A stretch of DNA of 64,000 nt from assembly GCA_951406725.2 (NCBI GenBank), contig OX597815.1, positions 162,378,001 through 162,442,000 on the forward strand. Reading direction: 5' to 3'. The position numbers and the translations under genes are program-made. Numbering within the stretch: position 1 is the first letter of the stretch; each line of letters starts with the position of its first letter. The notes beneath the pieces were generated by a model. The model did no database searches, was not told the DNA's origin, and was given only the letters and a program-made list of their open reading frames with translations. Below, one piece after another: positions 9,158 to 57,610 of this stretch. The DNA is from Octopus vulgaris (lineage: Eukaryota).

Positions 9158-9576
9158 GTTAGTTTAGTTAGTTAGTTAGTTAATTTGGCTCAAAAGCAAA
9201 TAGCAAGGCCATGTAGGGGGACATGGAGTTAAGTACAGGGTGGTGTTCATGTAAAGAGTTCAGGCCACTTGAGGTCCAGGGAGGCTTTGAACAAAGCGGT
9301 CGTCGGCATCTTCACCATCTCGTCTGGCAGCTTGTTCCACGGATCCGCAACCCGGACGGAGAAAGCTCCTCTCCTTCGATTGAGATGAAATCGTCGCAGG
9401 TAGAGCTTTTCGGAATGACCCCGCAGCCGACGCTCCGGAGCAGGAGTGAAGAACAGCTCTTTCGAGAGGTTACACTTCCCGCTTATGATGTTGTGGGCGA
9501 GAATGAGATCACCACGGCGGCGGCGTTTTTCAAGAGAATAAAGGTCGAGCGTCCTCAGCCTTTCTTCGTAGGACAA
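9158..9576 (-). mobile_element. CR1-clade LINE, 5'-truncated 3' end (copy 1)
   Basis: ORF 9247-9576 is identical in protein to the C-terminus of the RT ORF at 55968-57203; (TAAC)n tail. Confidence 0.92.
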
Positions 9577-15188: not shown

Positions 15189-15414
15189 GAATACAAAGGG
15201 ACTGTGGATAAAGACGGAGTGACCAAGAATATTATGCTAGGCTTAGAAAAATATAGCTGTCGGAATTCTCCTATTACAACAAGACAACATCCCACAATGC
15301 ATTTGCAGTAACAGTGCTGATTCCAACAGCTGGGATACCTGACATGTCTGTTGAATCAGTCCACTCCATAGACATTAACAGCTGCAAGATACCGACATCA
15401 ACCGGATGTCAGTA

Positions 15415-15880
15415 GTATAAAAGATGGTCTACAGCAAATATTTTGCTCAATGCCACAGATTTGCTTGTCAGTTGTTTGAAGTTAACCAGTTGAGCATGTC
15501 TCTTAGTGGCTGACGATGTATGCATCCCTGATCATGAGCGGAAGTAGTAGGGGAGCATCATAGCCATGTATTGAGACGAGTACTTTGGGGTTTGGATAAT
15601 TCACCTTTGGAAACATGAGCGTTTCGTTCAACATCCTTAAACAAGCCTTATTCAGGGACTTTTTGAGGGATGGGCTACTCGACCTGAAGATAATTCTAAC
15701 TGGGTCCCACCTGCAAGGTCATGTGCTGTTTATCTTGATATGAGATCACCATGTCACGCACATATTGTTGTGATGCATGTGCCTAGTGTACCCTAGACAT
15801 GATGGGTATACTGGGCTTCGTATATTTTACCCCAGTGTCACTTTGATGGCATACTTTCTCACTCAATAATAATAATAATT
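15415..15880 (+). mobile_element. ~465-bp dispersed retroposon-like repeat with (AAT)n tail; inverted copy at 22433-22918
   Basis: Extensive reverse-complement similarity, e.g. TTTTACCCCAGTGTCACTTTGATGGCAT vs ATGCCATCAAAGTGACACTGGGGTAAAA. Confidence 0.75.
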
Positions 15881-16291
15881 ATTATTATTATCATCTCCGC
15901 CTTATATGTATGTTTTTATTGGAAAAGTTCTTTTCATTGGAGATGTACTTGTTACCTCCGCCTTCGCTAAGGCGGAGGTGTTGTTTTCAGTCGTGTGTGT
16001 TTGTTTGTCTGTGGACAAGATATTTCAAGAATTGCTGGATGGATTTGGATGTAACATTCAGGGATGTTTAGCCTCGAGACTGGAACGAACTCATTATATT
16101 TTGGAATCGATCCGGTACCGGACATCGATTCTGAATTATTTTTCCTGTTTTTTTTGTTTTTTTTTAATTAACCTTTGTGAGCGGTCGAGTTCATTTTTAG
16201 TATTCTCGTTTGTGAGAGCAGCCGAGTTTCTTTCAGATATTCTCATTTTTAGAATCATCTCTGGGTAATCGTTGAGAGGACGTTAGTGTTA

Positions 16292-18112
16292 TAGTCGAGT
16301 CATTTGATTCCCTGTTGCATTTGATGTGTGTTCGCTCCATGTGAGTCTTGCTATTGTTTAATTGTGGAAGGTCTACCACACCTAATTGTTATATTGTTAA
16401 ATTTGTTACCTGGGAATTTTTCATTTTTCTTCCCCATTTATGGGTGAAGTTGTGAATAACAAAAATGTGTAGAGTCAACCAGTTCCAGCAGGCAGTTCTG
16501 CTGCAGTAACTGGGAAAATTCTAACCGCAGATGTCCTGCAGGTGAGAGAAATTCGACTGAACGACACGAATTTCAAGAAATACAACGAATTGTTAAGAAA
16601 GGAAGGCGACAGCCTGAAGCTGACACCGCCTAAGGAAATTACTGAAAAAAAAAAAAAACTGAAAAGAGGACTGTAATACACAGAACGTTGTCTCTTGCTG
16701 CAAAAAGAGTGGAAATAGCTGCATTAGAGGCAGCCGAGGAATGCTTGAAAGAGATCAAAAGTCTAACGACATACTACACAAGAGGAATGAAATATGGCAC
16801 AGTGGAGGTACGCTTCGCGAGTGAAGAAGAAGCGATAAAACACTCCATTGTGCCTTTGAGATCAACAGAGTGGGTACTACTACCAACCTATTGTTGCAGA
16901 CGTGCAGCCAGAGTTAGGATTGGTAGAGTACTCCCAGAAATTGACGAGGAGTGACTGGTGGCAGCCATCCTCTATAATACAGAGGAAGAAGCCAAAATTC
17001 TGAAAATCACAAGAACCACGGAGGTAAACTGCTGGGGATACGGCATCGAGGTGTCGGTTCACATCAGTTTACCAGACCTCCACAAAATTGCTGAGGAATT
17101 GGTGTTGCCGGATGAGACGAAGCTGAGAGTTGTGGTGGAGGGAAGACCTCCTATTTGCTTTCCATGTGGAGTACGGGGACACATGAAAGCTAAATGTCCA
17201 CAGAAACCTGAAGAGGAGGAGATAGAGAAAAAACAAGACGAAGGAATTTCAACCGCAGAGGAGCAAAGTATGGAGGAACAGTATACAGTGGTGAAGAGGA
17301 AAGAGTAACACGGACTCTCCAACAAAAATGTATCAGGAAGAAAAGAAAGGGAAGTGGAGAAGAGACGCAGAGTGTGAAACAAGGAAAAACGAACGAGCAG
17401 AAAAAAATGAAAGGCCAACAAAGGTAAGTGACGCAGTCGAAGAGCATAAACAGGAACCGATATCAACAACCAGCAAGGAGGAGAAAGTACAGAAGAAAAA
17501 GGAAGATGAAAGAGAAAGGATAGCAATACAGAGATAGAAATACCAGCAACAGTAGAAGAGATTGGTGAAGAAAAACGAACAGTGATACCGAAGGGAAAAT
17601 ACTTATGAGATATGATACAATACACAAAAAGTGTAGAGATAGAAAAAAAAGATAGCGAAAATGGAGAACGTAATCAGAGTTAAATTGACACCCAACGAGA
17701 ACAATATAGGTTTGAAAGCTGTTCTGCTGGAAAGAGAGAGGAAAGAACGGTTAAAGGAATTGTTAGGTGAAAAGTTAGAAGTGACACCGGTACAGTTTCG
17801 TTTTGATGAATTGCTGCCGGAGGTATTTGGCGTAAATGAGGAAATTAAGAACTGAATAATTAATGACTTCGTGTATTTTTTAAGGGAAAACCAGCAGATA
17901 CAAGGCAGATATTGAACTGTTAGTAAAATGTCATATAAAAACAATAAAATGAAACTGCCTGCTTAAGGGGTCAGGTATGTCATTCCATCCTCATTTTTCA
18001 TTGTATCAATAATTTTATACGATATGTGTTTTTATGTACCCCATTGTATTGTTTTGTCTATTTTCGTGTTGTCCACTCTTTATAGAGGTCTTATGCCTAA
18101 TAAAAGAAATCA
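16292..18112 (+). mobile_element. ORF1-only Tx1/L1-like element, unit A1 (frameshifted)
   Basis: ATG at 16440; ORF pieces 16688-16954, 16958-17308 (CFPCGVRGHMKAKC knuckle) and 17661-17855; ends AATAAAAGAAATCA; no RT or endonuclease. Confidence 0.75.
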
Positions 18113-18126
18113 GGACGTTGGTGTTG

Positions 18127-19740
18127 TATTGAGCCATTTGATTTCCTGTTGCATTTGATGTGTGTTCGCTTCATGTAAATCTTGTTTGAATTGTTGAAGG
18201 TCTACCGCACCTAATTGTTATATTACTGAATTGTTGAATTTATTCTTACCTGAATTTTTATTTTACTTCTCCATTTATAGGTGAAGTTGTGGATAATATC
18301 GCTATGGAATGTCAACCAGTTCCAGAAGGCAGTTACACTGCAGTGACTGGGAAAAGTCTAACAGTAGATATAATACTGCAAGTTAGAGACATTCAGCTGG
18401 AAGAAACAAATTTCAAGAGGTACAATGAACTATTAAGAAAGGAAAGAGACAGCCTAAGGCTGACGCCGCCTAAGGAAGTTATTGAAACGACAGAGAGAAG
18501 GACAATAATATACAGAATGCTGTCTATTGAAATAGTCGCAGTAGAGGCAGTCGAAGAATGCTTTAGAGAAGTCAAAGATCTAACGGCGTACTACACAAGA
18601 GGTAAGAAATACGGCACAGTGGAGGTACGCTTCGCGAGTGAAGAAGAAGCGATAAAACACCCCACTGTGCCTTTGAGATCAACTGAGTGGGTACTACTAC
18701 CAATTTACTGTGCTAAACGTGCGGCCAGAGTGAGGATTGGTAGAGTGCCCCCAGAAATTGAGGTGTGGCTGGTGGCAGCCATCCTTTTTAATACAGAGGA
18801 GGATACGAAAATACTGAAAATTACAAGAACTACGGAGGTAAACTGCTGGGGATACGGCCTTGAGGTGACGACTCACATCAATTTACCAGACCTCCACAAA
18901 ATTGCAGAGGAATTGGTGTTGCCGGACGAGACGAAGCTGAAAGTTGTAGTGGAAGGAAAACCTCCCGTATGCTATCAATGTGGAGTAAGGGGACACATGA
19001 AAGCTAAGTGTCCCCAGAAACACGAAGAGAAGGTGACGGATATGGAACAGCAAGAAGTAGACGTTCAAGGCATAGAGGAACCAGTGGAACATATGGAAGA
19101 AAGATACACAGTGGTGAAGAGGAAGAAAAGACGAGAAAACTCGGACTTACTACCAAAGAGTCCCATGAAGAAAAGAAAAGGAAGTGTAGAGGAAAGACAA
19201 GGGTTACCAAAAGGAGGAAAAGCGAACGAGCAGAAAAGAAACGAGATGTCGGCAAAATTAAACGAGAATGACAAAGAGAGAAAACAGAGAGCGATACCAT
19301 TAATTAGCCCGGGGGAGAAAGTAAAAGGACAGGAAAAAAAAAGGAAGATAGAAGAGAAATGACAACAACGTAGAGTGAAAGACAAGCAGAGAAGGAAGAG
19401 ATGGAAATAGCAACAACAGCAGAAGAGGTTAGTGATGGAAATCAGAAACCTTGGAGGGAAAACAAGAAGAACTATGATACAGCACAGAAAAAAATGTAGA
19501 AATTTAAAAAAAGATCACGGACTTTAAAAAAAAGATTATGAAAAAAACAGAGTAATGAACTGTGATACGTAAACAGAAAAATGGAACTGCTTGTTTAGTT
19601 GGGGCCATGCAGCCATTTCATCTCACCATTTATTCATAATTTCATCCGTTATTTGTTTTAGTGTATCCCTCTGTATTGTTTTGTCTGTTTTTGTACTGTC
19701 CCATCTTTATAAGAGGCCTTGTGCCTAATAAAAGAAATCA
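18127..19740 (+). mobile_element. ORF1-only Tx1/L1-like element, unit A2
   Basis: Same 5' start as A1 (TATTGAGCCATTTGATT); ends GGCCTTGTGCCTAATAAAAGAAATCA; bounded by GGACGTTGGTGTTG at 18113-18126 and 19741-19754. Confidence 0.8.
18289..19362 (+). CDS. Tx1/L1-type ORF1-like nucleic-acid-binding protein (RRM-like segments + CX2CX4HX4C zinc knuckle + K/E-rich tail)
   Basis: 357-codon open frame with SYTAV, YGTVEVRFASEE, RVRIGRVPPEI and VEGKPPVCYQCGVRGHMKAKC. The ATG homologous to A1 is ATA at 18277; the first in-frame ATG is at 18304. Confidence 0.7.
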   Translation: MDNIAMECQPVPEGSYTAVTGKSLTVDIILQVRDIQLEETNFKRYNELLRKERDSLRLTPPKEVIETTERRTIIYRMLSIEIVAVEAVEECFREVKDLTAYYTRGKKYGTVEVRFASEEEAIKHPTVPLRSTEWVLLPIYCAKRAARVRIGRVPPEIEVWLVAAILFNTEEDTKILKITRTTEVNCWGYGLEVTTHINLPDLHKIAEELVLPDETKLKVVVEGKPPVCYQCGVRGHMKAKCPQKHEEKVTDMEQQEVDVQGIEEPVEHMEERYTVVKRKKRRENSDLLPKSPMKKRKGSVEERQGLPKGGKANEQKRNEMSAKLNENDKERKQRAIPLISPGEKVKGQEKKRKIEEK

Positions 19741-19770
19741 GGACGTTGGTGTTGTCTCGGCGGAGGTTTG

Positions 19771-20080
19771 TGTCACAGGCGGTTTGAGTTGTCTTTTGTC
19801 GTGTTAGATGTAAGTCATGGTGTTAAATATTTGCTTGATTGATTGTTACTGTTCAAATTGTTGCTATTGTCATTTTGAATTGTTGTTTTTTTCCATTGTG
19901 AAGAGATAGTGCTGCCCGATGACATAAGATTGAGAGTGGTGGTGGAGAGCAGGCCGCCTATGTGTTATTTTTATATAACATCTCATTTTCATTCGTTTTA
20001 TGTTTTTGTCCCCACTGTGGTGTTGTGTCTGTCTGTAGTGTCCCCTCTGTGTTATGGCCGTAGGTTCAAATAAAGAAACA
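19771..20080 (+). mobile_element. Unit B1: 310-bp internally deleted derivative of unit B2
   Basis: 5' ~125 bp match B2 start, ~70 bp match B2 20855-20921, and 3' ~110 bp match B2 22219-22333. Confidence 0.85.
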
Positions 20081-20110
20081 GGACGTTGGTGTTGCTTCGG
20101 CGTAGGTTTG

Positions 20111-22333
20111 TGTCACAGGCGGTTTGAGTTGTTTTTTGTTATGTTAAACGTAAGTCTTAGTGTTAAATATTTGATTGATTGATTGTTACTGTTCAAATTG
20201 TTGCTCGTGTTATTTTGAATTCTGTTTTTTTTCCCATTGTGGGGAAAATGGAAAGAAACGTCAGCAGGTGGCCATAGTTATGGAAAAGAGATAGACGTGG
20301 AAACGCTGGAAGTAAGTGAAATAAAGGTTGAACCTCGAAAAATGAAGGAGTGCGAGAGGTTGCTGGAAAGAGACAGAAATACACTGAAGTTAACGCCGCC
20401 TGTGGAACTAACAACCAATGTAACGAAAAGGACGGTGATATATAAGACAATGAATATAGCAACAAGGAAAATAGAAATAGCGAGAATAGAGGCTATTGAA
20501 GAGTGTTTAAAGCGTATAAAAAGACTAACCACATTTATAACAAGAGGGAGAAAATACGCTACTGTGAAGGTGCGCTTTACCTCAGAAAAGGAAGCAATGA
20601 AGCACCCAACGGAGACAATAAGATCGGAAGAATGGGTGCTTTTGCCATCGTACTGTGGAAAACGTGCGGCCAGGGTGCGAGTTGGCAAAGTACCCCAGAG
20701 CTGAAAGAAACATAGCTGATGACCACCATGATGTATAACATGAATGAGGAGGGCAAGATACTGAAGGTCACAAGGACCCAAAGAGTTAGTTACTGGGGAT
20801 ATGGAATAGAGTTAACCGTTCAAGCAACAGTGGAAGACCTAAACAGAATTGTCGAAGAGATAGTGCTGCCCGATGACATAAGATTGAGAGTGGTGGTGGA
20901 GGGAAAGCCACCTCTATGTTATACATGTTGGGAAAGGGTCACATGATGGTGAGGTGCCTCCAGAGAGAACAACAAATAGAGCAGACGGAGAGGCAGGAGA
21001 GCACGGACCAGGTGGTACAGGTCGAGATAAAGGTGAAAGCAACGGAGGAGGGGTTCACGGTGTTTGAAAAAGAAAGAGAAGTGGGAGAGTGAGCTTTCTG
21101 CCAGAGTAGCAGAAAAAGAAGAAGAGATGGAAAAGGAAGAGACCAGAAGGAAGCAAGACGAAATGGTGGTGGATAAAAAAAGGGAAAAGTGTTCAAGGAA
21201 AAGACATTGGTGAAGACACCGCTAGTTCCAGTGGAGGAAAGAACATTTAGAAACGCAAGTGGAGAGACTGTTCAGAGTGGTGGAAGAAAAGAAGGTACCA
21301 GGAGCGGAGAAGGAAAAGAGAAATCTAATAAGAAAAGGAAAATTTCGATGGAATTTTGTGACGTATGCAAAAAGCAAAGAAACTGAAAAGAAAGTATTAA
21401 AGTTTAAACATATTATAAGAGTCAAGTTGCCCACGGATGTGTATTCCGAGAATGTGAAGGCCGTCGTGGTTGACAAGGATACCTACAACAGACTAAAATA
21501 TATGTGTGGAGAAGGGATTGACCCGCCATGAGTGAAGATGGAGTTCGATGAATTGCCACCTGTAGTGGAGCTAGCAGATTTAGAACATTTCATGAAATAT
21601 TAAAAACCAAAAAAAAAATTAAATTGTTTTATTGAAAAAAGAGGGATCTTTTCGGTTTGAACGGCAGTTTTTTCTAGCGGTGTCATATGAAATTGTCACC
21701 CATAATTATGACCCTGGTATCTATTGCATTTCAATCTATTTTAGGGCCAGGGTTAGTTAGGGTTAGGGTTAGGGGTGGGGGGAAGGGCATCTTTTTTTTC
21801 TTCACAAATGTAAATAAACCCAATCTGTTTCTTAAACGAGGGATATATTCATACGGCACAGAATGTTTTCACCTCAATAGACGTCAGTGATTGGTTGAAA
21901 TTGCAGAAATTGAAGAAAAAAACGACAAATATCTTACAAACCATAGACTTTTCTCAATAAAGCCAAGAGAAAAAGATGTTTTATAAACACATTCAACCAG
22001 TATACGAAGTTTAGTTACGTGGAAATTATTTTAAAAAACTGCCTTTCAAACCGAAAAAATCCAGAAAGAGAAAAAAGTAAAATTGTTTCATTTAAAAAAA
22101 GAGTAAAAACGAGATTAAGAAAAAACAATAAGATAATAGAACGATTGTAAATAGTTTATATAAACATTCAAACGATACTGCATGGGAGTGGGACCCATGC
22201 AACCATTTCATTTTTCATTTTTATGTAACATCTCATTTTCATTCGTTTTATGTTTTTGTTCCCACCGTGGTGTTGTGTCTGTCTTTGTAGTGTCCCCTCT
22301 GTGTTGTGGCTGTAGAGCCAAAATAAAGAAACA
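20111..22333 (+). mobile_element. ORF1-only Tx1/L1-like element, unit B2 (second family, frameshifted; carries a MITE)
   Basis: ORF pieces 20237-20704 and 20719-20946 (CYTC...GHMMVRC split by a frameshift) are homologous to A2; 21259-21531 is homologous to A1 17661-17855; ends AAATAAAGAAACA. Confidence 0.78.
21644..22062. mobile_element. Merlin-like MITE family 1 (copy 1), nested in B2
   Basis: TIRs GGATCTTTTCGGTTTGAACGGCAGTTTTT / AAAAACTGCCTTTCAAACCGAAAAAATCC; TSD AAAAAGAG / AGAAAGAG (7/8); internal TTAGGG repeats. Confidence 0.8.
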
Positions 22334-22432
22334 TTGACGGAGCTTTGCGCTATCTGAGTGCTCTTCTTCTTCTTCTTCTTATTATTATTTTTTCTTCCTT
22401 TTTTTTCTTCTTTCAAATTCCTTCCTTCAAAT

Positions 22433-22918
22433 TATTATTATTATTATTGAGTGAGAGAGCAGTGCATGCCATCAAAGTGACACTGGGGTAAAATATACGA
22501 AGCCCAATATACCCATCATGACTACCCGTCTGATAAGGGTACACCAGGCACATGCATCACAACCATATGTGCGCGACATGGTGATCTCATATCAAGATAA
22601 ACAGCACATGACCTTGCAGGTGGGGCCCAGTTAGAATTTTCTTCAGGTCGAGTAGCCCATCCCACTTAAAAGGTCCCTGACTAAGGGTTGTTTAAGGACG
22701 TTGAACAAAACACCCATGTTTCCAAATGTGAATCATCCAAATCCCAAACAATCCCTCTCAACACATGGCTATGATGCTCCCCCACTACTTCTGCTCGTGA
22801 TCAGAGATGCACGTATCGTCAGCCACTAAGGGACATGCTCAACTGGTTAAGGTCAAACAACTGACAAGCAAATCTGTGGTATTGAGCAGAATATTTGCTG
22901 TAGCCCATCTTTTATACC
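22433..22918 (-). mobile_element. Dispersed (AAT)-tailed repeat, inverted copy of 15415-15880
   Basis: Reverse-complement similarity; flanked by (ATT)n. Confidence 0.75.
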
Positions 22919-23001: not shown

Positions 23002-23737
23002 CGAGATAAACTCTACCGGCACGGAAGTGCCGTCAGCCGGGCCTGCCCGAGGTGTTGCCAGGACGACGAAACCGTCCTGCACGCACTCGTCCAGTGCCCG
23101 AGTATTGCTGAAATATGGGTTTATGTCGAACAGCTACTGTCACGTGTAGGACGGATCCGACTATCGGCCGAATCCATAGTGAAGATTGCCCCGCCGACCT
23201 CCTTTAACAAGGAGGGCGAGGCCGTTTTCTTGTGCCTAGTGGCTGTGGCGAAAGAGGTGGTGTGGTGGACTCGTTTGAAAGGGCTAAAGTCATACACTTT
23301 CCTCTTTGGTCAAGGCCTCATCAACTTTTTCAAGTTTCACTTGAAAAGGAAAATGAGGTTAGAGAGGAAAGTGCTGTCCGATAGCAAGTTTTATGAAAGG
23401 TGGGTGAATTGTGCGAGACTGGCCTGTATAAATGGACCAGTTCTCAGGTTTCGCCTGTGATTTCAAAAAGGTAATACAAAAGGAGAAGAAAGGGGACTCT
23501 CTACACCCCCTTTTTAGACCAGGCTCCCGTTGGCTTTTGTAGGGTTTTTTTCCACCAGGAACCTTTCGAAACGTCTCCCCCTTTTGGGAGTTTTTCATTG
23601 TTTTAATAATCATTGTTTTAAAGTTTTTTACACGGATTTTTTAACAAACGGACAAAACCCTTTGTAACCTTTCGTCCTGTCTTGTCCCTTTATGTAATCA
23701 TGCGTGTCAGCCCTTGTGGCCAATAAAAAAGAATTGA
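23002..23737 (+). mobile_element. L1/Tx1-clade LINE 3' end (C-terminal zinc-binding region + 3' UTR) inside an (ATT)n tract
   Basis: RDKLYRHGSAVSRACPRCCQDDETVLHALVQC (CX2C...HX4C); stop at 23460; tail GCCCTTGTGGCCAATAAAAAAGAATT; homologous to 51840-52200 on the minus strand. Confidence 0.85.
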
Positions 23738-24833: not shown

Positions 24834-25252
24834 GGATCTTTTCGGTTTGAACGGCAGTTTTTTCTAGCGGTGCCATATGAAATTGTCACCCATAATTATG
24901 ACCCTAGTATCGAACTATTGCATTTCAATCTATTTTAGGGTTAGGGTTAGGGTTGGAGTTGGGGGAAGGGTATCTTTTTTTCTTCACAAATGTAAATAAA
25001 CCCAATCTGTTTCTTAAACGAGGGACATATTCATACGGCACAGAATGTTTTCACCTCAATAGACGTCATTGATTGGTTGAAATTGAAGAAATTGAAGAAA
25101 AAACAACAAATATCTTACAAACTATAGAATTTTCTCAATAAAGCCAAGAGAAAAAGATGTTTTATAAACACATTCTACCAGTATACGAAGTTTAAAATTT
25201 TTTAGTTACCTAGAAATTATGTTAAAAACTGCCGTTCAAACTGAAAAGATCC
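24834..25252. mobile_element. Merlin-like MITE family 1 (copy 2)
   Basis: TIRs begin GG; perfect 8-bp TSD CAAGACTC at 24826-24833 and 25253-25260; similar to 21644-22062 throughout. Confidence 0.88.
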
Positions 25253-27755: not shown

Positions 27756-28236
27756 TGGGGAAAAAAGTCAAAATTGAAGAAGTTGGGGGAAAGTGGGGTG
27801 GAAATTTAACAATGTCGATTTTTGTCAATTTTCCGGAACCTCCATATCTGGAAACGGTGATTTTCGGAAAAAAAAATTACAAAAGTAAACAAATTTGGTA
27901 GAAAATGGTGGGGGTGGGGGGAGACGGGCGGAAGTCTTTCCGTAATGAGTTCCAGCGGAAGACTGGTGCAGTGTTCTATCCCTCCAACTGTCACTTCTTG
28001 ATGTTCCATAAGGGCCGAAAATGAAACGGTGAAGAGGTTGTCTATGTCTGGTCGTGAATAAATATATACCTAAAACAACTAACGCAAGCCTTGTGTATGT
28101 TATCAAGCCGTCACTCGTGACGTCTGGCTGTACTGTATTGTACTTTATAAAAATGCAACCCTTGTGCAAGTTTTATTGTAAATTTGATTTCAGATTGTAA
28201 AAAGACAATGTATTCTGAACCATATACAGCATATAC

Positions 28237-28711
28237 AAGACATACAGCATCTCGAAAGAGTCCAGAGGCTGGCTACCCGCATGGTTCATGGTCTCAAAAA
28301 TTTGTCCTACGAAGAAAGGCTGAGGACGCTCGACCTTTATTCTCTTGAAAAACGCCGCCGCCGTGGTGATCTCATTCTCGCCCACAACATCATAAGCGGG
28401 AAGTGTAACCTCTCGAAAGAGCTGTTCTTCACTCCTGCTCCGGAGCGTCGGCTGCGGGGTCATTCCGAAAAGCTCTACCTGCGACGATTTCATCTCAATC
28501 GAAGGAGAGGAGCTTTCTCCGTCCGGGTTGCGGATCCGTGGAACAAGCTGCCAGACGAGATGGTGAAGATGCCGACGACCGCTTTGTTCAAAGCCTCCCT
28601 GGACCTCAAGTGGCCTGAACTCTTTACATGAACACCACCCTGTACTTAACTCCATGTCCCCCTACATGACCTTGCTATTTGCTTTTGAGCCAAATTAACT
28701 AACTAACTAAC
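28237..28711 (+). mobile_element. CR1-clade LINE, 5'-truncated 3' end (copy 2)
   Basis: Only about 4 substitutions relative to 56808-57281; (TAAC)n tail. Confidence 0.92.
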
Positions 28712-48519: not shown

Positions 48520-49315
48520 GGTGTGGGGTGGGGGCTCTATCCGAGGTAACCAAAGAGCCCTCATAGACCCTGGATACTTCCAGGCAGTGTGTTACATATC
48601 CCAGGGCCCAATAATTACAGGTATAAACCTGAACTTGTAATCTGGATAGAGTAACTGCAGGTTTCTCAATAGTTCAGCATAGGTGTTCTCTTTTTCACTG
48701 ATCTTCAACTTTATGTTAACATCCGCTAGGCAGCTAATTTCCACAATTGCGCACAGTTTCTCTTCTCCGTCCCAAATCATTATGTCAGGCCTGTTGTGCT
48801 TACATTTTATTAGGGTCTTCATTGGGACATTCCACCAGTCTTCATTTTTATTATGAGTGGCTATGACTTCTACCATATTGTGGGTTCTTATTTCTTTGTC
48901 CTCAGAATTATCCTTCCGACGGATTTCATTATAGAGTGCCCTAGCTACAACGTCATGTCTCATCGGTAGATAATACCGTGATGACATTTTCGGACAACTG
49001 CATATGTGGGTGATATCTTCAGTGTGAACTCCACAAAGTCTGCATCGGTTGTCACATTGTCATACTGCTTTTCTTGCATCTCTGTCCCTTTTGTGCATCA
49101 GGTTGATATTTCCTGTTCCTGGATTTCGAACGCATACTCTCCGAAGTGGGAAGTAGCTATCCGGCTACTGGTCCATAATAAACTGCTTTGATGATCGATG
49201 TTACTATTATCACAGAGCTTTCTACTAACACATCCATGCATAGTCCTCTGTTCATATAAGCTCATCTCTTCATCTGATGATACGTTGCGGTAGAGTTGTG
49301 CGACTTCTTTGGACA
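48520..49315 (-). mobile_element. R4/Dong-type LINE fragment (CCHC + restriction-like endonuclease)
   Basis: QEQEIST, CRLCG..ED.THI..CP, RHD, HNRPDIMIWD...IVEISC...EKENTY and FIPVIIG. Confidence 0.85.
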
Positions 49316-49394
49316 TGTATGTATGTATGTATGTATGTATGTATGTATGTATGTATGTATGTATGTATGTATGTATGTATGTATGTATGTATGT

Positions 49395-49713
49395 CATCTT
49401 CGTAGTCATAAAACGAGACAGATGAGTGACAACCTGGCCACTGGTGGTGGTGTAATACACCATACTAATCATATCTGTCGGGCATGTGGAAGAGAGTGTA
49501 ATTCGGCAGGAGGACTTAAACAACATGCAAAGGTACATGAAGCCCAGTTACAACTACAGCCGGCTATGACCAGTAAAGGTTTTAGTTGCCAATTTTGTAC
49601 AAGACATTGTAGATCTTTAGCTGGGCTAAAAAGTCACATTCGATCACAGCACCAGTAACAGTTAAGCTTCGTGCAGTGGCCATACTCGATAACGAGGGGG
49701 CAGCCATAATAAT
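49395..49713 (+). mobile_element. RTE-like LINE 3' end with tandem C2H2 fingers, inside (TATG)n
   Basis: HLRSH...CRACGRECNSAGGLKQHAKVH...CQFCTRHCRSLAGLKSHIRSQH; 3' UTR GGCCATACTCGATAACGAGGG + (ATA)n resembles the RTE tail at 47028-47068. Confidence 0.65.
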
Positions 49714-51839: not shown

Positions 51840-54000
51840 GGTATCCATCATGGATTGGCCAAAGAGAAAAGTGTTTGTCTTCAGCCCCTTCAATCCCGTC
51901 CACCATACAACCTTTTTCACCATGGCCACCAGGCATATAAACACAGCCTTTCCTTCCCGGTTAAAGAAAGGCGGCGAGGCGATCTTCACGATGGATTCAA
52001 TTGACAGCCGGATCTACTCACACGCGACAGCAGGCGTTCGACATAAACCCACAGGTTAGTAATGCTCGGGCACAGGCCGAGTGCATGTAGGACCGTCTCA
52101 TCGTCCTGCTCGGCTGACGGCACTTCCGTGATTGTAAAGTTTATCTCGTACAGACAAAGCTCCCCGATAGCACTGCCAGACCAGAGATTTTTGGAAATTA
52201 CCCATCGGTCCCGGGCCGAAAGTTCTCCGGGAGAGAGCGGCTAGCTGATCTTCTTCGACACTTAAGGTCTCCCCAAAACGTCGTCGCACTTTTCATCCAC
52301 TAACCATTTATAAAAAAACTAAAGTGGACGTTCCACATATTGCATTGTCCGATTGGCTGAGGGCTGTGAGCGCTTTAAGACATTCCACTTTCCAAATGCT
52401 CCTCTCCCGGTCAATATCGTTTTAAAAATTAACAGCTACCTCATCAAAATCTCATAGCTACAAGATAATGCATGATTAGTTTAAAATAATGTGGATGAAG
52501 AAGCATTAATTTTGGCAGAATAATGCGAATACTAAAGGGTTAAGACATTCCACTTTCCAAATGCTCCTCCCTCGGTTTCTGTTTTACCCAGGACTGCAGT
52601 TCCGTTTAAGAAATTAACTGTGGAAATGTGTCAGGCGAACGGTGACCACACCTGTTCACCTGCAAGGAAGCACTGGAGATGTCGTTGCCTCAGTGCATGT
52701 CTGCGCATCATCAACCACGGTATGCTCAGGCCACCACCTAGCGGGTATTGACAGCAGACAGACCGCTGACTATTGGGACGTGTCCTTTTCACAAGCAGCG
52801 GAGGAGTATACGCTCCAGCGTAATCAGAGGTGGCTCGGACAAGGCACGACGGTCAAGTGAAAGTAGATGACGGGCACGATATACGCGTTAACCACCTCTG
52901 CCTGACCTTTCAGGGGTAACTTTCTCTCGGCCCATTTCTATGTGAGAGTAGTCATCCTGCTCTTTACGTCATCTCAGTTTTTGTCCATCTGGAGGTCCGG
53001 ACCGAACCAATCCCGAGCAATTTAACCGGTCCATCCGTCCAGCGCCCAACGACACAGTTGGACGGCATAGACTTGCTTCTCCGGGTGCCAAGCTGCAAGT
53101 CCACTGATTTTTCCTGGTTTAATCGTCGCTCCTGAAACCACTTCGTAGTCTCTAAGAGCGGTGCCGATAGTTTCTATTGTCCCGGTCAACGCCCTCTTAA
53201 CTAGTTCTCTAATCCGGTCGCTGAAATCTTTACGTGCCGGTAATGACGCGTTCAGCTTCCAGTAACCGGGTCCCTGACTATGAAGCCTAAGTAAACTGTT
53301 ACAGATCACGAAACTGTGGTCTGTGTAGTCGACTACTTTAAACTGTGGACAACCTATGCTATCCTTATCTGCTACTTTACAGAATACCCTATCTAGATAC
53401 GATCTGGATGACCCGATGCGGTTTGACCAGATCCACACTGGCACATCCGGGAAATCCAGTCGATACTTGTCAGATAGTTGGAATCGTCTACGAGGCTTTT
53501 GGGTTTACGAGGCTTTTGCACCCTCCTTTCCTTTCTGCTAAACCTACACAGTCCCACCTTACATCTAAAACTCCATTCCAATCTAACACTAAAGAGCGGG
53601 TCGTTCCCACGAAGGCTTCCAGATGTTTGAAAAGATCTGGTCGTCCTGCTCCTGTCTGGGCATAGACGGCAACTAACCTAAGTATGTCACTCGCTGCCTG
53701 TCACGTCCAGGACCACCGATTTACCTTCCGGATCCAGGTAGATCAACTTTATTGCAAGATCCAGATTTTTCTGAACCATCACAGCAACTCCACTTCTCGC
53801 TCCCGGATGACTTGATGCGTACACCTCATAGTCGCCAAAAATATGTCGGAAGTCCCGTGGGTCAGAGATTCTGGTTTTACTAATGGCCACCACGTCGACA
53901 TTCAGTGCTCTGAGGTCGTTGAGCAGGTGACCTCGCTTCCAAGGCGACCCCAGCCCACGTACATTCACGCTACCTATTCTGTACACGGCCATGTTGTCGG
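51840..54000 (-). mobile_element. Degenerate L1/Tx1-clade LINE ORF2: APE endonuclease joined to the post-RT region, RT core deleted
   Basis: MAVYRIGSVNVRGL..., SYLDRVF, YTDH and GPGYWKLNASL (APE), then directly YEVVSGATI and WQCYRGALSVRDKLY; homologous to 23002-23460. Confidence 0.85.
52405..52543. mobile_element. piggyBac-like right-end fragment
   Basis: Ends AAAGGG-TTAA; flanked by a 30-bp direct repeat that begins with TTAA. Confidence 0.45.
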
Positions 54001-54510
54001 AAAAAGGAAAGAAAATAAAAAGAAAACTTACTTGGTTTTGTTTGGAGAAGCATATTGCCTGCCCCACCTGTTGGCTTGGAATGTTTCCAACAGTAGATCA
54101 CCAAGAATTCTCTTGGTGACATTCCCTCGAAAATCTTCGATTTCCTGTGGGAATCGGGCTTTTAAGTGTGTGTATGTGTTTTATGTTGTCTGAATGATTT
54201 GTATGTGTGCAGGTAGGGAGATTATGTTTGTGTGTGTTATTATGTACTTCATTAATTTATTGTTTTTTGTGCTTATTGCCATGTAGTTTGCAATGTTAGT
54301 CTCTTTAATGTGTTTGTTGTTGTTGCTGTGGTTGTGGTTGTTGTGTTTGCGTGCATGGGATGGCCAGTGTGATATTTTGCTACTGCCTCTGCTACTTCCC
54401 CTTCCCAAGCTTCCTGTCATACTGTAACATCTCTTCACTCGCCCTAGGACGCTGGGTGTGTCTCAGCAAATGACTGTAACAAACATGCAGATTAAAAGTA
54501 AAAAAAAAAA

Positions 54511-54620
<110 letters not shown>

Positions 54621-55207
54621 TCCTTTCTGCTTAAGGCACAAGGCCTGAAATTTTGATGGGATGGGGCTTGTCGATTACATCAACCCTAGCGTTTCACTGG
54701 TACATAATTTATTGACCTCGAAAGGATGGAAGGCAAATTCGACCTCAGCTGAATTTGAACTCAGAACGTTAAATTCCGGTTGAGATACTGCAAAGCAATA
54801 ATAATGAAGATGGTTTCTTTATTAGACACCATGGCTCACTGAAAAACGAGGATATTACAAGTATAGAGTTACAGAAAATAGAGAGTGAGATTTTACGTGT
54901 AAACAAAATGATATAGAACAACAAAAAACAATAAAGAAAAATACAAAAGCTCTCAGGTAACAATCAAATTTTAACAAAGAAAATTCCCCAGGTGGGATTG
55001 CGTAATACAACTAGCGTGAATGATATTTGTCAGTTGATGTATGAAATTCGTTCATTCTTTGTTGATTGTGTAATTAATGATTTTTTCCCCCCTTTTGTTC
55101 GTGTTAGGTGCGGTATTCTGGCTGAAGGTATGTGTGAATTAGGTTGCGCTTAGATTCATAATGTTGGTGGCGCACGTGGCAGTGATAGAGGTGATGGGGT
55201 GATGATA

Positions 55208-55721: not shown

Positions 55722-57281
55722 AAACGTGTTATTCAAGGCCTCGATGTCAACAAGGGTCACGGCCCTGACGGCATACACCCACGGGTTATCAAAGCGTTGG
55801 CTCCGGTCATCTGCGAGCCCTTAACACGACTATTCAATATGTCATTGGCGACGGGTGTTATACCTGCAGACTGGAGAACAGCGATAATCTGCCCAATTTT
55901 CAAGAAAGGGAGCCGCGAAGACCCGCTTAATTACTGACCGGTTTCCCTTACATCAATAATCAGCAAGATGTTCGAAACCATCCTTAAGAAAAGTATGATG
56001 CTCCACCTCCTAAACACAGCCTCTATCTCTGATTCCCAACACGGCTTCGTGCCGAAGAGATCATGCTTGACCAAATTACTAGTAATGGAAGAATTGGTGA
56101 CGCGCATCCTCGATGATAGTGATGCTGTTGACATCGTTTTATTGGACTTTGCCAAAGCTTTTGACTCGGTAAACCACCGCCTATTACTTGTCAAGCTTCA
56201 AGCATATAGTTTCCATCCGGATATTGTACGATGGGTTGGTGCCTTCCTCTCAGATCGCTCCTTCCAAGTCCAAGTTAATGGTTCGCGGTCCGACGTCTCC
56301 AGTGCGAGCAGTGGCGTGCCTCAAGGTTCAGTGCTTGGGCCCTTGTTGTTCTTAGTCTTCATAAATGACTTGCCCGACGACCTCACGCAACACACCCTTC
56401 TATTTGCCGACGATATCAAACTGGTCGCTCCTCGCGGTAATATAGAGGATCTTCGTCGATGCCTCCACCAAATTTGGAAGTGGTCTAACGATTGGGACCT
56501 GTGTCTGAACGTGTCAAAGTGCTGTCATCTGCCTGTCGGCTCTACTCCTGCAACTCAACTTGATTTCGAGCCGGGTCGTCTGCTGCTGGAGAGGACCGAT
56601 CAGGTAAAGGACCTAAGTATCTTGGTGGATTCCTCCTTTTCGCCTTCGGCCCAGTGCGTCCATGCTGCCAACAAAGCACGCGGAATTCTGTTCTTGATTC
56701 GACGGTCATTCGGAATGCTCAAAGCAGCCATATTCCTACCACTCTATGTCACGCTGGTGAGACCCATATTGGAGTATGGGATTCAAGCCTCTTCTCCTTA
56801 TCTCATCAAAGACATACAGCATCTCGAAAGAGTCCAGAAGCTGGCTACCCGCATGGTTCATGGTCTCAAAAATTTGTCCTACGAAGAAAGGCTGAGGACG
56901 CTCGACCTTTATTCTCTTGAAAAACGCCGCCGCCGTGGTGATCTCATTCTCGCCCACAACATCATAAGCGGAAAGTGTAACCTCTCGAAAGAGCTGTTCT
57001 TCACTCCTGCTCCAGAGCGTCGGCTGCGGGGTCATTCCGAAAAGCTCTACCTGCGACGATTTCATCTCAATCGAAGGAGAGGAGCTTTCTCCGTCCGGGT
57101 TGCGGATCCGTGGAACAAGCTGCCAGACGAGATGGTGAAGATGCCGACGACCGCTTTGTTCAAAGCCTCCCTGGACCTCAAGTGGCCTGAACTCTTTACA
57201 TGAACACCACCCTGTACTTAACTCCATGTCCCCCTACATGGCCTTGCTATTTGCTTTTGAGCCAAATTAACTAACTAACTA
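55722..57281 (+). mobile_element. CR1-clade LINE, 5'-truncated (RT domain to 3' end), with 18-bp TSD
   Basis: GPDGIHPRV, IFKKGSR, NY*PVSLTS, QHGF, DFAKAFD, SGVPQGSVLGPLLF, FADD and RGHSEKL; (TAAC)n tail; TSD ACGTTGTTATCCTCATTC at 55704-55721 and 57282-57299. Confidence 0.95.
55968..57203 (+). pseudogene. CR1 ORF2 reverse transcriptase (no endonuclease; TGA at 55935-55937 interrupts NYRPVSL)
   Basis: 411-codon open frame with non-LTR RT motifs; the upstream frame 55722-55937 continues it. Confidence 0.9.
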
Positions 57282-57610
57282 ACGTTGTTATCCTCATTCC
57301 GTAAACGGTGGCTTTTTAACAGATGGAGAGCTCATCCTGAGGTACAGAGGATTCGCAATCTAGACTAGGGTCTGAAAGTTTACCACACCATAGTGAGTTA
57401 CACCATGGGTCCGCTGCTTTGTGGCAGAAGTAGAAAGAAAGAGTGAGAGAAAGTTGTGGTGAAAGAGTACAGCGGGGTTCACCACTAACCCTCACCGGAG
57501 TCTCGTGGAGTTTAGGTATTTTTGCTCAATAAGCACTCATAATGCCCGGTCTGGGAATCGAAACCGCGTTCTTGCGACCGCGAGTCCGCTGCCCTAACCA
57601 CTGGGCCATT
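57282..57610 (-). mobile_element. tRNA-headed SINE-like element interrupted by the CR1 (probably continues at about 55620-55721)
   Basis: Minus-strand head TGGCCCAGTGGTTAGGGCAGCGGACTCGCGGTCGCAAGAACGCGGTTTCGATTCCC (A and B boxes), then TTATTGAGCAAAA as in family 3. Confidence 0.65.

What the first reader, a model, noticed from the sequence alone, without database searches (positions are those of the whole stretch)
16292..21570. ORF1-only 'half-Tx1' elements (HAL1-like) with a conserved protein and no RT or endonuclease
Seen: units are about 1.6-1.8 kb excluding the nested MITE and encode only an RRM-like + CX2CX4HX4C protein followed by a 3' UTR and A-rich end. Families A and B have dissimilar 5' UTRs but conserved protein: YTRGKKYGTVEVRFASEEEAIKHPTVPLRSTEWVLLPIYCAKRAARVRIGRVP vs ITRGRKYATVKVRFTSEKEAMKHPTETIRSEEWVLLPSYCGKRAARVRVGKVP. 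A2 retains a 357-codon open frame. Known: HAL1 elements are ORF1-only derivatives of L1 mobilised in trans. Inference: an independent, long-lived Tx1-derived analogue whose ORF1 stayed under selection while borrowing ORF2.
Basis: partly seen in the sequence, partly recalled or inferred. Interest (0 to 1): 0.75.

Follow-up and report, generated by a model that had tools for sequence, protein, structure and literature searches.

The report
Octopus half-LINEs stacked at one target
Four dead copies of octopus jumping genes that carry only an RNA-binding protein and no copying enzyme are stacked at one short target sequence, probably guided there by an enzyme borrowed from a complete relative; this lifestyle is known, but this site-specific form seems undescribed.

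Summary
The elements are real. Window 16278-22347 holds four head-to-tail non-LTR retroelements (A1, A2, deleted B1, B2) in an octopus genome. No copy is intact; A2's 357-codon frame is truncated. ORF1 evolved under purifying selection (dN/dS 0.30 A1-A2; 0.08-0.20 A-B, synonymous sites near saturation), and A and B share a colinear 3' UTR starting 24 nt after A1's stop, so the ORF2-less layout belongs to the families, not to local deletions. New here: the 14-mer GGACGTTGGTGTTG at each junction, plus a second 14-mer repeated on both sides of B2, read as target-site duplications inside a ~370-bp host repeat. Diverged families therefore hit one site repeatedly, as Tx1L and SINEU-3 do. A cousin ORF1 heads an endonuclease-bearing L1/Tx1-type ORF2 elsewhere in the window. 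Untested: other genomic copies, the empty site, the partner LINE, RT-based clade, expression. Verdict: new variant of a known kind (HAL1, HeT-A, Ag-Sponge).

The parts
15952..16291 (+). Left part of the interrupted host repeat; begins with the palindrome TTACCTCCGCC..GGCGGAGGT; likely a non-autonomous DNA transposon (Crypton-like termini, recalled, not verified)
   Evidence: no second copy in the window, no Rfam match, empty site not seen
16278..16291 (+). Target duplication site 1, first copy (12 of 14 identical to the other three)
16292..18112 (+). Unit A1: T-rich 5' UTR, broken ORF1 about 16467-17855 including the C-terminal domain, 257-nt 3' UTR ending AATAAAAGAAATCA
18113..18126 (+). Target duplication site 1, GGACGTTGGTGTTG
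18127..19740 (+). Unit A2, 77% identical to A1; most of the C-terminal domain and the start of the 3' UTR are deleted
18304..19362 (+). A2 open frame, 352 aa from ATG: RRM1, RRM2, CCHC knuckle, K/E-rich linker; ends early after a frameshift
19741..19770 (+). Site 1 plus site 2 (30 bp), 5' flank of B1; 27 of 30 identical to 20081-20110; holds GGCGGAGGT, the reverse complement of the host repeat's left-end ACCTCCGCC
19771..20080 (+). Unit B1: 5' UTR, 74 nt of ORF1 and the 3' end of family B, 89-91% identical to B2; two internal deletions
20081..20110 (+). Site 1 plus site 2 (30 bp), between B1 and B2
20111..22333 (+). Unit B2: broken ORF1 20248-21603 with C-terminal domain; 3' UTR about 303 nt without the MITE, ending AATAAAGAAACA
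21644..22062 (.). Nested MITE, 30-bp terminal inverted repeats, 8-bp TSD (hAT-like by TSD length); second copy at 24834-25252, 89% identical, with a perfect 8-bp TSD
22334..22361 (+). Site 2 copy directly after B2 (22334-22347; 10 of 14 to B2's 5' flank, 11 of 14 to B1's) and the inferred right end of the host repeat
23002..23735 (+). Relative, not part of the array: 5'-truncated L1/Tx1-type ORF2 end (zf-RVT) and 3' UTR with a similar AATAAA(A)GAA end, between (ATT)n runs
54028..54318 (-). Relative: C-terminal domain of an ORF1 of the same family (other subclade), ending 35 nt before an ORF2 start
51840..53992 (-). Relative: broken ORF2 with APE endonuclease start and a C-terminus like the 23-kb copy; RT largely missing

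Best explanation
A and B are families of non-autonomous non-LTR retrotransposons descended from an L1/Tx1-type LINE that lost ORF2. Each makes a ~1.8-kb RNA encoding only ORF1 (RRM-RRM-CCHC-linker-CTD). ORF1 coats its own RNA in cis, and the conserved 3' UTR lets the RNA capture ORF2 (APE endonuclease + RT) of an autonomous, sequence-specific Tx1-type partner. That enzyme nicks one site, ...GAGA|GGACGTTGGTGTTG-yy-TCGGCGGAGGTTTG..., near the right end of a short host repeat and copies the RNA there by target-primed reverse transcription. Each insertion duplicates 14-30 bp of the site and so renews the target, building a tandem array of different families. SHOWN: anatomy, no ORF2 in the array, selection on ORF1, shared ORF2-less 3' region, the duplications, kinship with an ORF1 that precedes an APE ORF2. 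INFERRED: cis role of ORF1, trans use of ORF2, sequence-specific partner, host repeat being a DNA transposon. All four copies here are dead.
For: Three of 4 units join site 1 at the same base; site-1 copies are 14/14, 14/14, 14/14 and 12/14 alike while the elements are 77% (A1-A2) and 66% (A-B core) identical, and no other place in the window reaches 12/14, so these are separate insertions, not duplicates of one. A second 14-mer flanks B2 on both sides at the exact junction; 24 of 115,754 outside positions match as well for B2's copy and 1 of 115,754 for B1's. dN/dS 0.30 (0.17-0.49; 164 codons) A1-A2, 0.20 A2-B2, 0.08 A1-B2. A1 and B2 3' UTRs align from 24 nt after A1's stop to the end; the proximal part alone beats 1000 of 1000 shuffles. 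A CTD profile built from 9 outside homologs finds the ORF end just before an APE ORF2 at 54 kb (26.9 bits, E 9e-8; best unrelated 4.3 bits; reversed control 0.5). 4 of 151 family gene models restart the domain order, as tandem units would. Precedent: SINEU-3 in Mariner-N4_AMi forms tandems sandwiching a TSD, and Tx1 inserts in the DNA transposon Tx1D (PMC4494074).
Against: One locus only: no genome, no read view, no octopus DNA in the scanned collections, so neither the empty site nor another copy's flanks were seen. The link to the 54-kb LINE is indirect: a profile from A/B-type CTDs alone gives it 6.0 bits, and its best match P0011 lies in the other half of the core tree. Tail likeness to the 23-kb LINE is significant for 1 of 3 units (A2 0 of 500 shuffles; A1 58, B2 69 of 500). 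Both autonomous-type remnants sit beside (ATT)n runs, not this target, so the partner is not identified. B2's 3' junction lies 16 nt from the other three. No member of the 122-protein alignment showed the ZCCHC3 Pfam domains among the 25 of 38 families listed.
Confidence: 0.65

Rival explanations
1. ORF1-only families, but not target-specific: the 14-mer is the elements' own conserved 5' end, and the array formed by template jumping or by insertion next to earlier copies.
For: The motif stands at the head of all 4 units and is absent after the last one; the empty site was not seen.
Against: It leaves unexplained the site-2 repeat right after B2 and the match of GGCGGAGGT to the left flank's ACCTCCGCC; the rest of the A and B 5' UTRs is barely alike.
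Confidence: 0.13
2. ORF1-only and target-specific, but not one old lineage: A and B lost ORF2 separately, or B's ORF1 came from another LINE and took an A-like tail, so part of the selection signal dates from autonomous ancestors.
For: The 3' UTRs are far more alike (76% A1-A2, 71% A2-B2 over the terminal 117-190 nt) than A-B synonymous sites (pS 0.69-0.74), which fits constraint but also tail exchange. HAL1s arose several times (PMC5753468 passage).
Against: Homology starts 24 nt (A1) and about 84 nt (B2) after the stop with no credible ORF2 remnant; A1, A2, B2 and P0013 form one supported clade (97/88).
Confidence: 0.12
3. Local deletions of ordinary full-length Tx1-type LINEs after or during insertion.
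For: Internal deletions do occur here (B1, A2); a family member precedes an ORF2 at 54 kb; other copies could not be examined.
Against: Three copies of two deep lineages would each need a clean loss of all of ORF2; none keeps ORF2 sequence; a search for 1092-3115-aa relatives found 0 of 7444 candidates (weak since the ORFs are seldom fused).
Confidence: 0.07
4. LTR-element Gag, or a host gene family or its retrocopies.
For: The CCHC knuckle matches Gag nucleocapsids and ZCCHC8; homologs are annotated as uncharacterised host genes.
Against: Matches are confined to the knuckle region; the fold is tandem RRM; the first unit has no upstream copy of the 3' end, so no LTR; no introns; all copies broken; hundreds of diverged relatives (492 at E<=0.001).
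Confidence: 0.03

Closest known systems
HAL1 (half-L1) of mammals (passages in PMC5753468, PMC3627910, PMC5786205; Bao & Jurka 2010 not held)
   Same: ORF1 only, ORF1 kept under selection, ORF2 borrowed in trans.
   Different: HAL1 comes from the L1 clade with coiled-coil/RRM/CTD ORF1 and (recalled) poly(A) tails and dispersed insertion; here a type-I RRM-RRM-CCHC ORF1 with an extra C-terminal domain, no poly(A), one target site.
HeT-A (Jockey clade) and Ag-Sponge (CR1 clade), the other ORF1-present non-autonomous LINEs listed in PMC5786205
   Same: ORF1-only; HeT-A also has a zinc knuckle and forms head-to-tail arrays (PMC13534243 passages).
   Different: HeT-A arrays grow at chromosome ends; this array is interstitial with duplicated target between units. 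No Tx1-derived case is in that list.
SINEU-3 in Mariner-N4_AMi, crocodilians (PMC4494074 section 14)
   Same: Non-autonomous, tied to Tx1 elements, inserted in a non-autonomous DNA transposon, tandems sandwiching a 16-bp TSD.
   Different: SINEU-3 is a short snRNA-derived non-coding SINE; these encode ORF1.
Xenopus Tx1L in Tx1D (passages in PMC1950540, PMC4494074)
   Same: Sequence-specific insertion inside a DNA transposon; long TSD (23 bp recalled).
   Different: Tx1L is autonomous with its own endonuclease and RT.

Membership tests
ORF1-present non-autonomous LINE (HAL1-like kind) | Encodes a LINE ORF1 and no ORF2 | tested here: met
   257 nt (A1) and about 303 nt (B2) from stop to 3' end
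ORF1-present non-autonomous LINE (HAL1-like kind) | ORF1 under purifying selection among ORF2-less elements | tested here: met
   dN/dS 0.30 A1-A2 and 0.08-0.20 A-B with shared ORF2-less 3' region; tail exchange not excluded for A-B
ORF1-present non-autonomous LINE (HAL1-like kind) | Retrotransposition marks (TSD, precise 3' end) | tested here: met
   14-30-bp duplications and common AATAAA(A)GAAA(T)CA ends; no poly(A)
ORF1-present non-autonomous LINE (HAL1-like kind) | Many independent genomic copies with the same ORF2-less structure | not testable with these tools
   no genome; 3 long copies in the window; 492 protein relatives without context
ORF1-present non-autonomous LINE (HAL1-like kind) | Identified autonomous partner sharing the 3' tail | tested here: inconclusive
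   A2 tail matches the 23-kb LINE tail, A1 and B2 do not
HAL1 proper | Derived from the mammalian-type L1 clade (Transposase_22 ORF1) | tested here: not met
   architecture is two RRMs plus CCHC, type I by PMC5203782; Transposase_22 not among families listed
Tx1 clade | RT phylogeny places the parent in Tx1 | not testable with these tools
   no RT in the array; RT mostly missing from the 54-kb relative
Tx1 clade | Type-I ORF1 (RRM + CCHC) before an APE ORF2 with L1/Tx1-type C-terminal zinc domain | tested here: met
   indirect, via P0011-type subclade; Exo_endo_phos E 0.017, below cut-off; zf-RVT E 1.5e-5 on the 23-kb copy
Tx1 clade | ORF1 homology to known Tx1 ORF1 / ZCCHC3 | tested here: inconclusive
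   Atlas rank 10, score 0.90, ZCCHC3 RBD cluster (a lead); not listed by Pfam
Tx1 clade | Target-sequence preference | tested here: met
   4 of 4 units within 16 nt of one site; one locus only
Crypton non-autonomous element (host repeat) | Termini shared with a tyrosine-recombinase Crypton family | tested here: inconclusive
   resemblance recalled; motifs absent from the text of 6 supplements of PMC3212892, whose main text says no terminal repeats were found in animal Cryptons; 0 matches
LTR retroelement / Gag-only element | LTR at both ends and capsid fold | tested here: not met

The most novel reading that the evidence does not exclude
Octopods carry one ancient ORF1-only lineage, old enough for synonymous sites to saturate, that split into many families and has kept hijacking a sequence-specific Tx1 endonuclease to pile up inside one DNA-transposon family: a layered parasitism (half-LINE on LINE on MITE on autonomous transposon) and perhaps the longest-lived protein-coding LINE parasite outside Drosophila telomeres. 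Its extra C-terminal domain could be what couples it to the partner.
Probability: 0.3. Interest if true: 0.6.

Novelty: new variant of a known kind. Interest (0 to 1): 0.42.

Why it matters
It would add a fourth LINE lineage (L1/Tx1-type) to the published list of ORF1-keeping parasites and join two traits so far described apart: keeping ORF1 and using a site-specific Tx1 endonuclease in trans. A fixed target makes insertions easy to count and date across octopus genomes, so it is a handy system for asking why ORF1 must be supplied in cis. It also explains a set of spurious 'CCHC-domain' gene models in octopus annotations. The lifestyle itself is known and recurs in this scan, so the gain is for transposon specialists.

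Tried and rejected
No own genome. Sequencing runs: 20 of 24 listed runs in 10 studies hold part of the stretch, best share 0.49; no RNA holder listed; no read or contig layout was obtained, so copy number, empty site and expression are open. The search for related loci: alignment too diverse; single protein, 0 of 115 pattern matches confirmed. Junction pattern in metagenomes: 2 hits, both GC-rich (62-64%) with no likeness beyond the motif, taken as chance. Host-end pattern: 0 hits in viral and genome contigs. ORF2 C-terminal remnant in the 3' UTRs, suspected by eye: A1 288, B2 76, A2 1 of 300 shuffles reach the score; the A2 hit is 10 residues at 5.3 bits and was not accepted. A second ORF1-CTD-plus-tail element at 54.8-55.2 kb: not supported (protein frames 237, 929 and 705 of 1000 shuffles; DNA 5 of 300). 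3' end as LTR with PBS: no upstream copy before A1. snRNA or other RNA target: no Rfam match at E<=1 in 15300-16400 or 17850-22500. The 488-bp inverted repeats round the array as transposon ends: not tested beyond; more likely two copies of a common repeat (recalled). CTD fold: no Foldseek match at E<=0.001, best Z 6.0, rmsd 3.0, 67 aligned: only a common ferredoxin-like arrangement. Earlier scan notes by sequence, place and first word search: nothing.
Full report
Source. The window is most likely from an octopus: 4 of the 5 closest proteins are named Octopus bimaculoides, and of 30 family proteins looked up, 16 carry a species name, all octopods (11 O. bimaculoides, 3 O. vulgaris, 1 O. sinensis, 1 Argonauta hians). 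No genome is held and no read layout was obtained, so DNA evidence rests on this window.

Anatomy. Self-comparison shows four units on the + strand: A1 16292-18112, A2 18127-19740, B1 19771-20080, B2 20111-22333. A1 and A2 are 77% identical over 1311 nt; A and B are 66-67% identical in the ORF core; B1 is 5' UTR, 74 nt of ORF and 3' end of family B at 89-91% identity to B2. A 419-bp MITE with 30-bp inverted ends and an 8-bp duplication sits in B2's 3' UTR. Every unit ends AATAAA(A)GAAA(T)CA without poly(A). None is intact: A1 and B2 have stops and frameshifts, and A2's 352-aa frame ends after a frameshift in the linker and lacks most of the C-terminal domain.

Protein. A model of A2 residues 1-244 from a 122-sequence alignment is confident (pLDDT 89). 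Foldseek's best matches are tandem RRMs (IMP3 RRM12, E 2e-5); VIA gives the La RRM for residues 55-138 (Z 9.3, rmsd 2.7, 82 aligned) and a ferredoxin-like fold for 139-219 (Z 7.6, rmsd 2.9, 78 aligned). A CCHC knuckle follows (PF00098), then a K/E-rich linker and a ~90-aa domain conserved in A1, B2 and outside homologs. Folded in homolog P0068 it is well defined (pLDDT 92-95 over residues 171-230) but matches only generic ferredoxin-like folds (Z 6.0 at best; none at E<=0.001). RRM plus CCHC is the type-I ORF1 that PMC5203782 (passages) associates with the Tx1 clade in non-mammalian animals. The Atlas lists a ZCCHC3 cluster at rank 10, score 0.90, a lead only; Pfam did not list those domains. 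The family is large: 492 representatives at E<=0.001.

Link to a LINE. A CTD profile from 9 outside homologs finds, besides B2 and A1, one more place in the window: an ORF end at 54318-54028 (-), 26.9 bits, E 9e-8, against 4.3 bits for the best unrelated hit and 0.5 for the reversed sequence. It stops 35 nt before an ORF2 start whose first 101 aa resemble APE endonucleases (Pfam E 0.017, below cut-off; L1 ORF2 E 0.005) and whose C-terminus matches the zf-RVT-bearing fragment at 23 kb. So this ORF1 family does head an L1/Tx1-type LINE. The link is two-step: the remnant's best match is P0011 (E 2e-4), which lies in the other half of the core tree, and A/B-type CTDs alone give it 6.0 bits (tree of 44 rows: 42 of the 122 aligned that filled 72% of the core, plus A1 and part of B2). 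It is a cousin, not the parent.

ORF2-less by family. From stop to 3' end there are 257 nt in A1 and about 303 nt in B2. tblastn with the window's ORF2 remnants and its other RT finds nothing in the array, and a suspected ORF2 remnant did not hold up. The A1 and B2 3' UTRs align from 24 nt after A1's stop to the end, and the stop-proximal part alone scores above 1000 of 1000 shuffles, while it does not match the 23-kb LINE's proximal UTR (167 and 42 of 1000). Nei-Gojobori dN/dS with stop codons skipped: A1-A2 core 0.30 (0.17-0.49, dS 0.31, 164 codons), N-terminus 0.26 (0.11-0.61, 51 codons), A2-B2 0.20 (dS 1.9, 209 codons), A1-B2 0.08 (dS 3.5, 152 codons); CTD 35% identical with synonymous sites saturated. 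Decay after insertion pushes these values up. The simplest reading is one loss of ORF2 before A and B split, with ORF1 and the tail both constrained since; tail exchange or two losses remain possible. Absence of ORF2 fusions among proteins (0 of 152; 0 of 7444 long candidates) is weak support only.

Target. GGACGTTGGTGTTG precedes all 4 units (12, 14, 14, 14 of 14; nothing else in the window reaches 12). Both B units are preceded by 16 more bases whose last 14 recur at the first base after B2 (10 and 11 of 14; matched by 24 and 1 of 115,754 outside positions). B1 is thus flanked by a 30-bp repeat (27 of 30), B2 by a 14-bp one, A1 and A2 by a 14-bp one. Near-identical spacers between strongly diverged elements mean separate insertions at one site; 3 of 4 share the 3' junction to the base. 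The site carries GGCGGAGGT, the reverse complement of ACCTCCGCC in a palindrome at 15952, which suggests that 15952-16291 and 22334-22361 are the two parts of one ~370-bp repeat. I recall such termini from non-autonomous Crypton elements, but could not verify it. Four of 151 family gene models with a domain hit restart the domain order (P0005, P0021, P0060, P0088; five poly-knuckle proteins set aside), hinting at tandems elsewhere without showing what lies between.

Mechanism. Cis ORF1 packages the RNA, the conserved tail recruits a partner's ORF2, the partner's endonuclease sets the site, and each duplication renews it. The partner is unidentified: the two autonomous-type remnants here adjoin (ATT)n runs, and tail likeness to the 23-kb copy is significant for A2 only.

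Literature. PMC5786205 (passages) lists HeT-A, HAL1 and Ag-Sponge as ORF1-present non-autonomous LINEs, none from Tx1. PMC3627910 (passages) gives 29-44 Myr of ORF1 maintenance for guinea-pig HAL1. PMC4494074 (passages and section 14) describes SINEU-3 tandems sandwiching a TSD in Mariner-N4 and Tx1 in Tx1D; PMC1950540 (passages) the specific Tx1L endonuclease. PMC13282606 (first third of text, term searches of text and its one supplement) reports 80 L1-Tx1 families in O. vulgaris, with 0 occurrences of Crypton, ORF or non-autonomous in the main text and 0 of HAL1, ORF1 or Crypton in the supplement; its sequence library was not seen. PMC5753468, PMC13534243, PMC3212892 and PMC13465315 were seen as passages; Bao & Jurka 2010 is not held. 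Searches (listings only) showed no title or abstract on an ORF1-only Tx1 element or one from cephalopods; Repbase and subscription journals were not searchable. Earlier scan notes (unchecked) report half-LINEs in several other genomes, so the lifestyle is recurrent.

Verdict. Observation partly confirmed, interpretation partly supported and extended by target specificity. New variant of a known kind; confidence 0.65; interest 0.42.

Noticed in passing
window 15415-15883 and 22430-22917: Two copies of a 488-bp repeat, 88% alike, in inverted orientation on either side of the host repeat and array, with (TAA)n/(ATT)n runs pointing inwards.
   Followed up: no
window 54811-54960 (-): An isolated 3' tail ending AATAAAGAAACCA that resembles A2's tail (0 of 500 shuffles; A1 16, B2 15 of 500); no ORF1 or ORF2 remnant found upstream.
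   Followed up: partly
window 55938-57283 (+), 28188-28711 (+), 9167-9576 (-): A very young LINE of another kind: 421-aa open RT frame and two 3' fragments 98-100% identical.
   Followed up: no
window 21644-22062 and 24834-25252: MITE with 30-bp inverted ends, 8-bp TSD and an internal (GGGTTA)n telomere-like run.
   Followed up: partly
P0132, P0158-P0160: Four near-identical family proteins lie on separate Logan contigs of 1849-1930 nt, close to the unit length here; could be whole ORF1-only units or transcripts.
   Followed up: no
P0022, P0064: O. bimaculoides gene models in which pieces of this ORF1 are joined to apparent host domains (WD40-like and LDL-receptor-like by eye): likely annotation artefacts or exonisation.
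   Followed up: no
window 48592-49658 (-): Fragments resembling a restriction-like-endonuclease LINE (CCHC, RHD and KPD-type motifs, zinc fingers; by eye).
   Followed up: no
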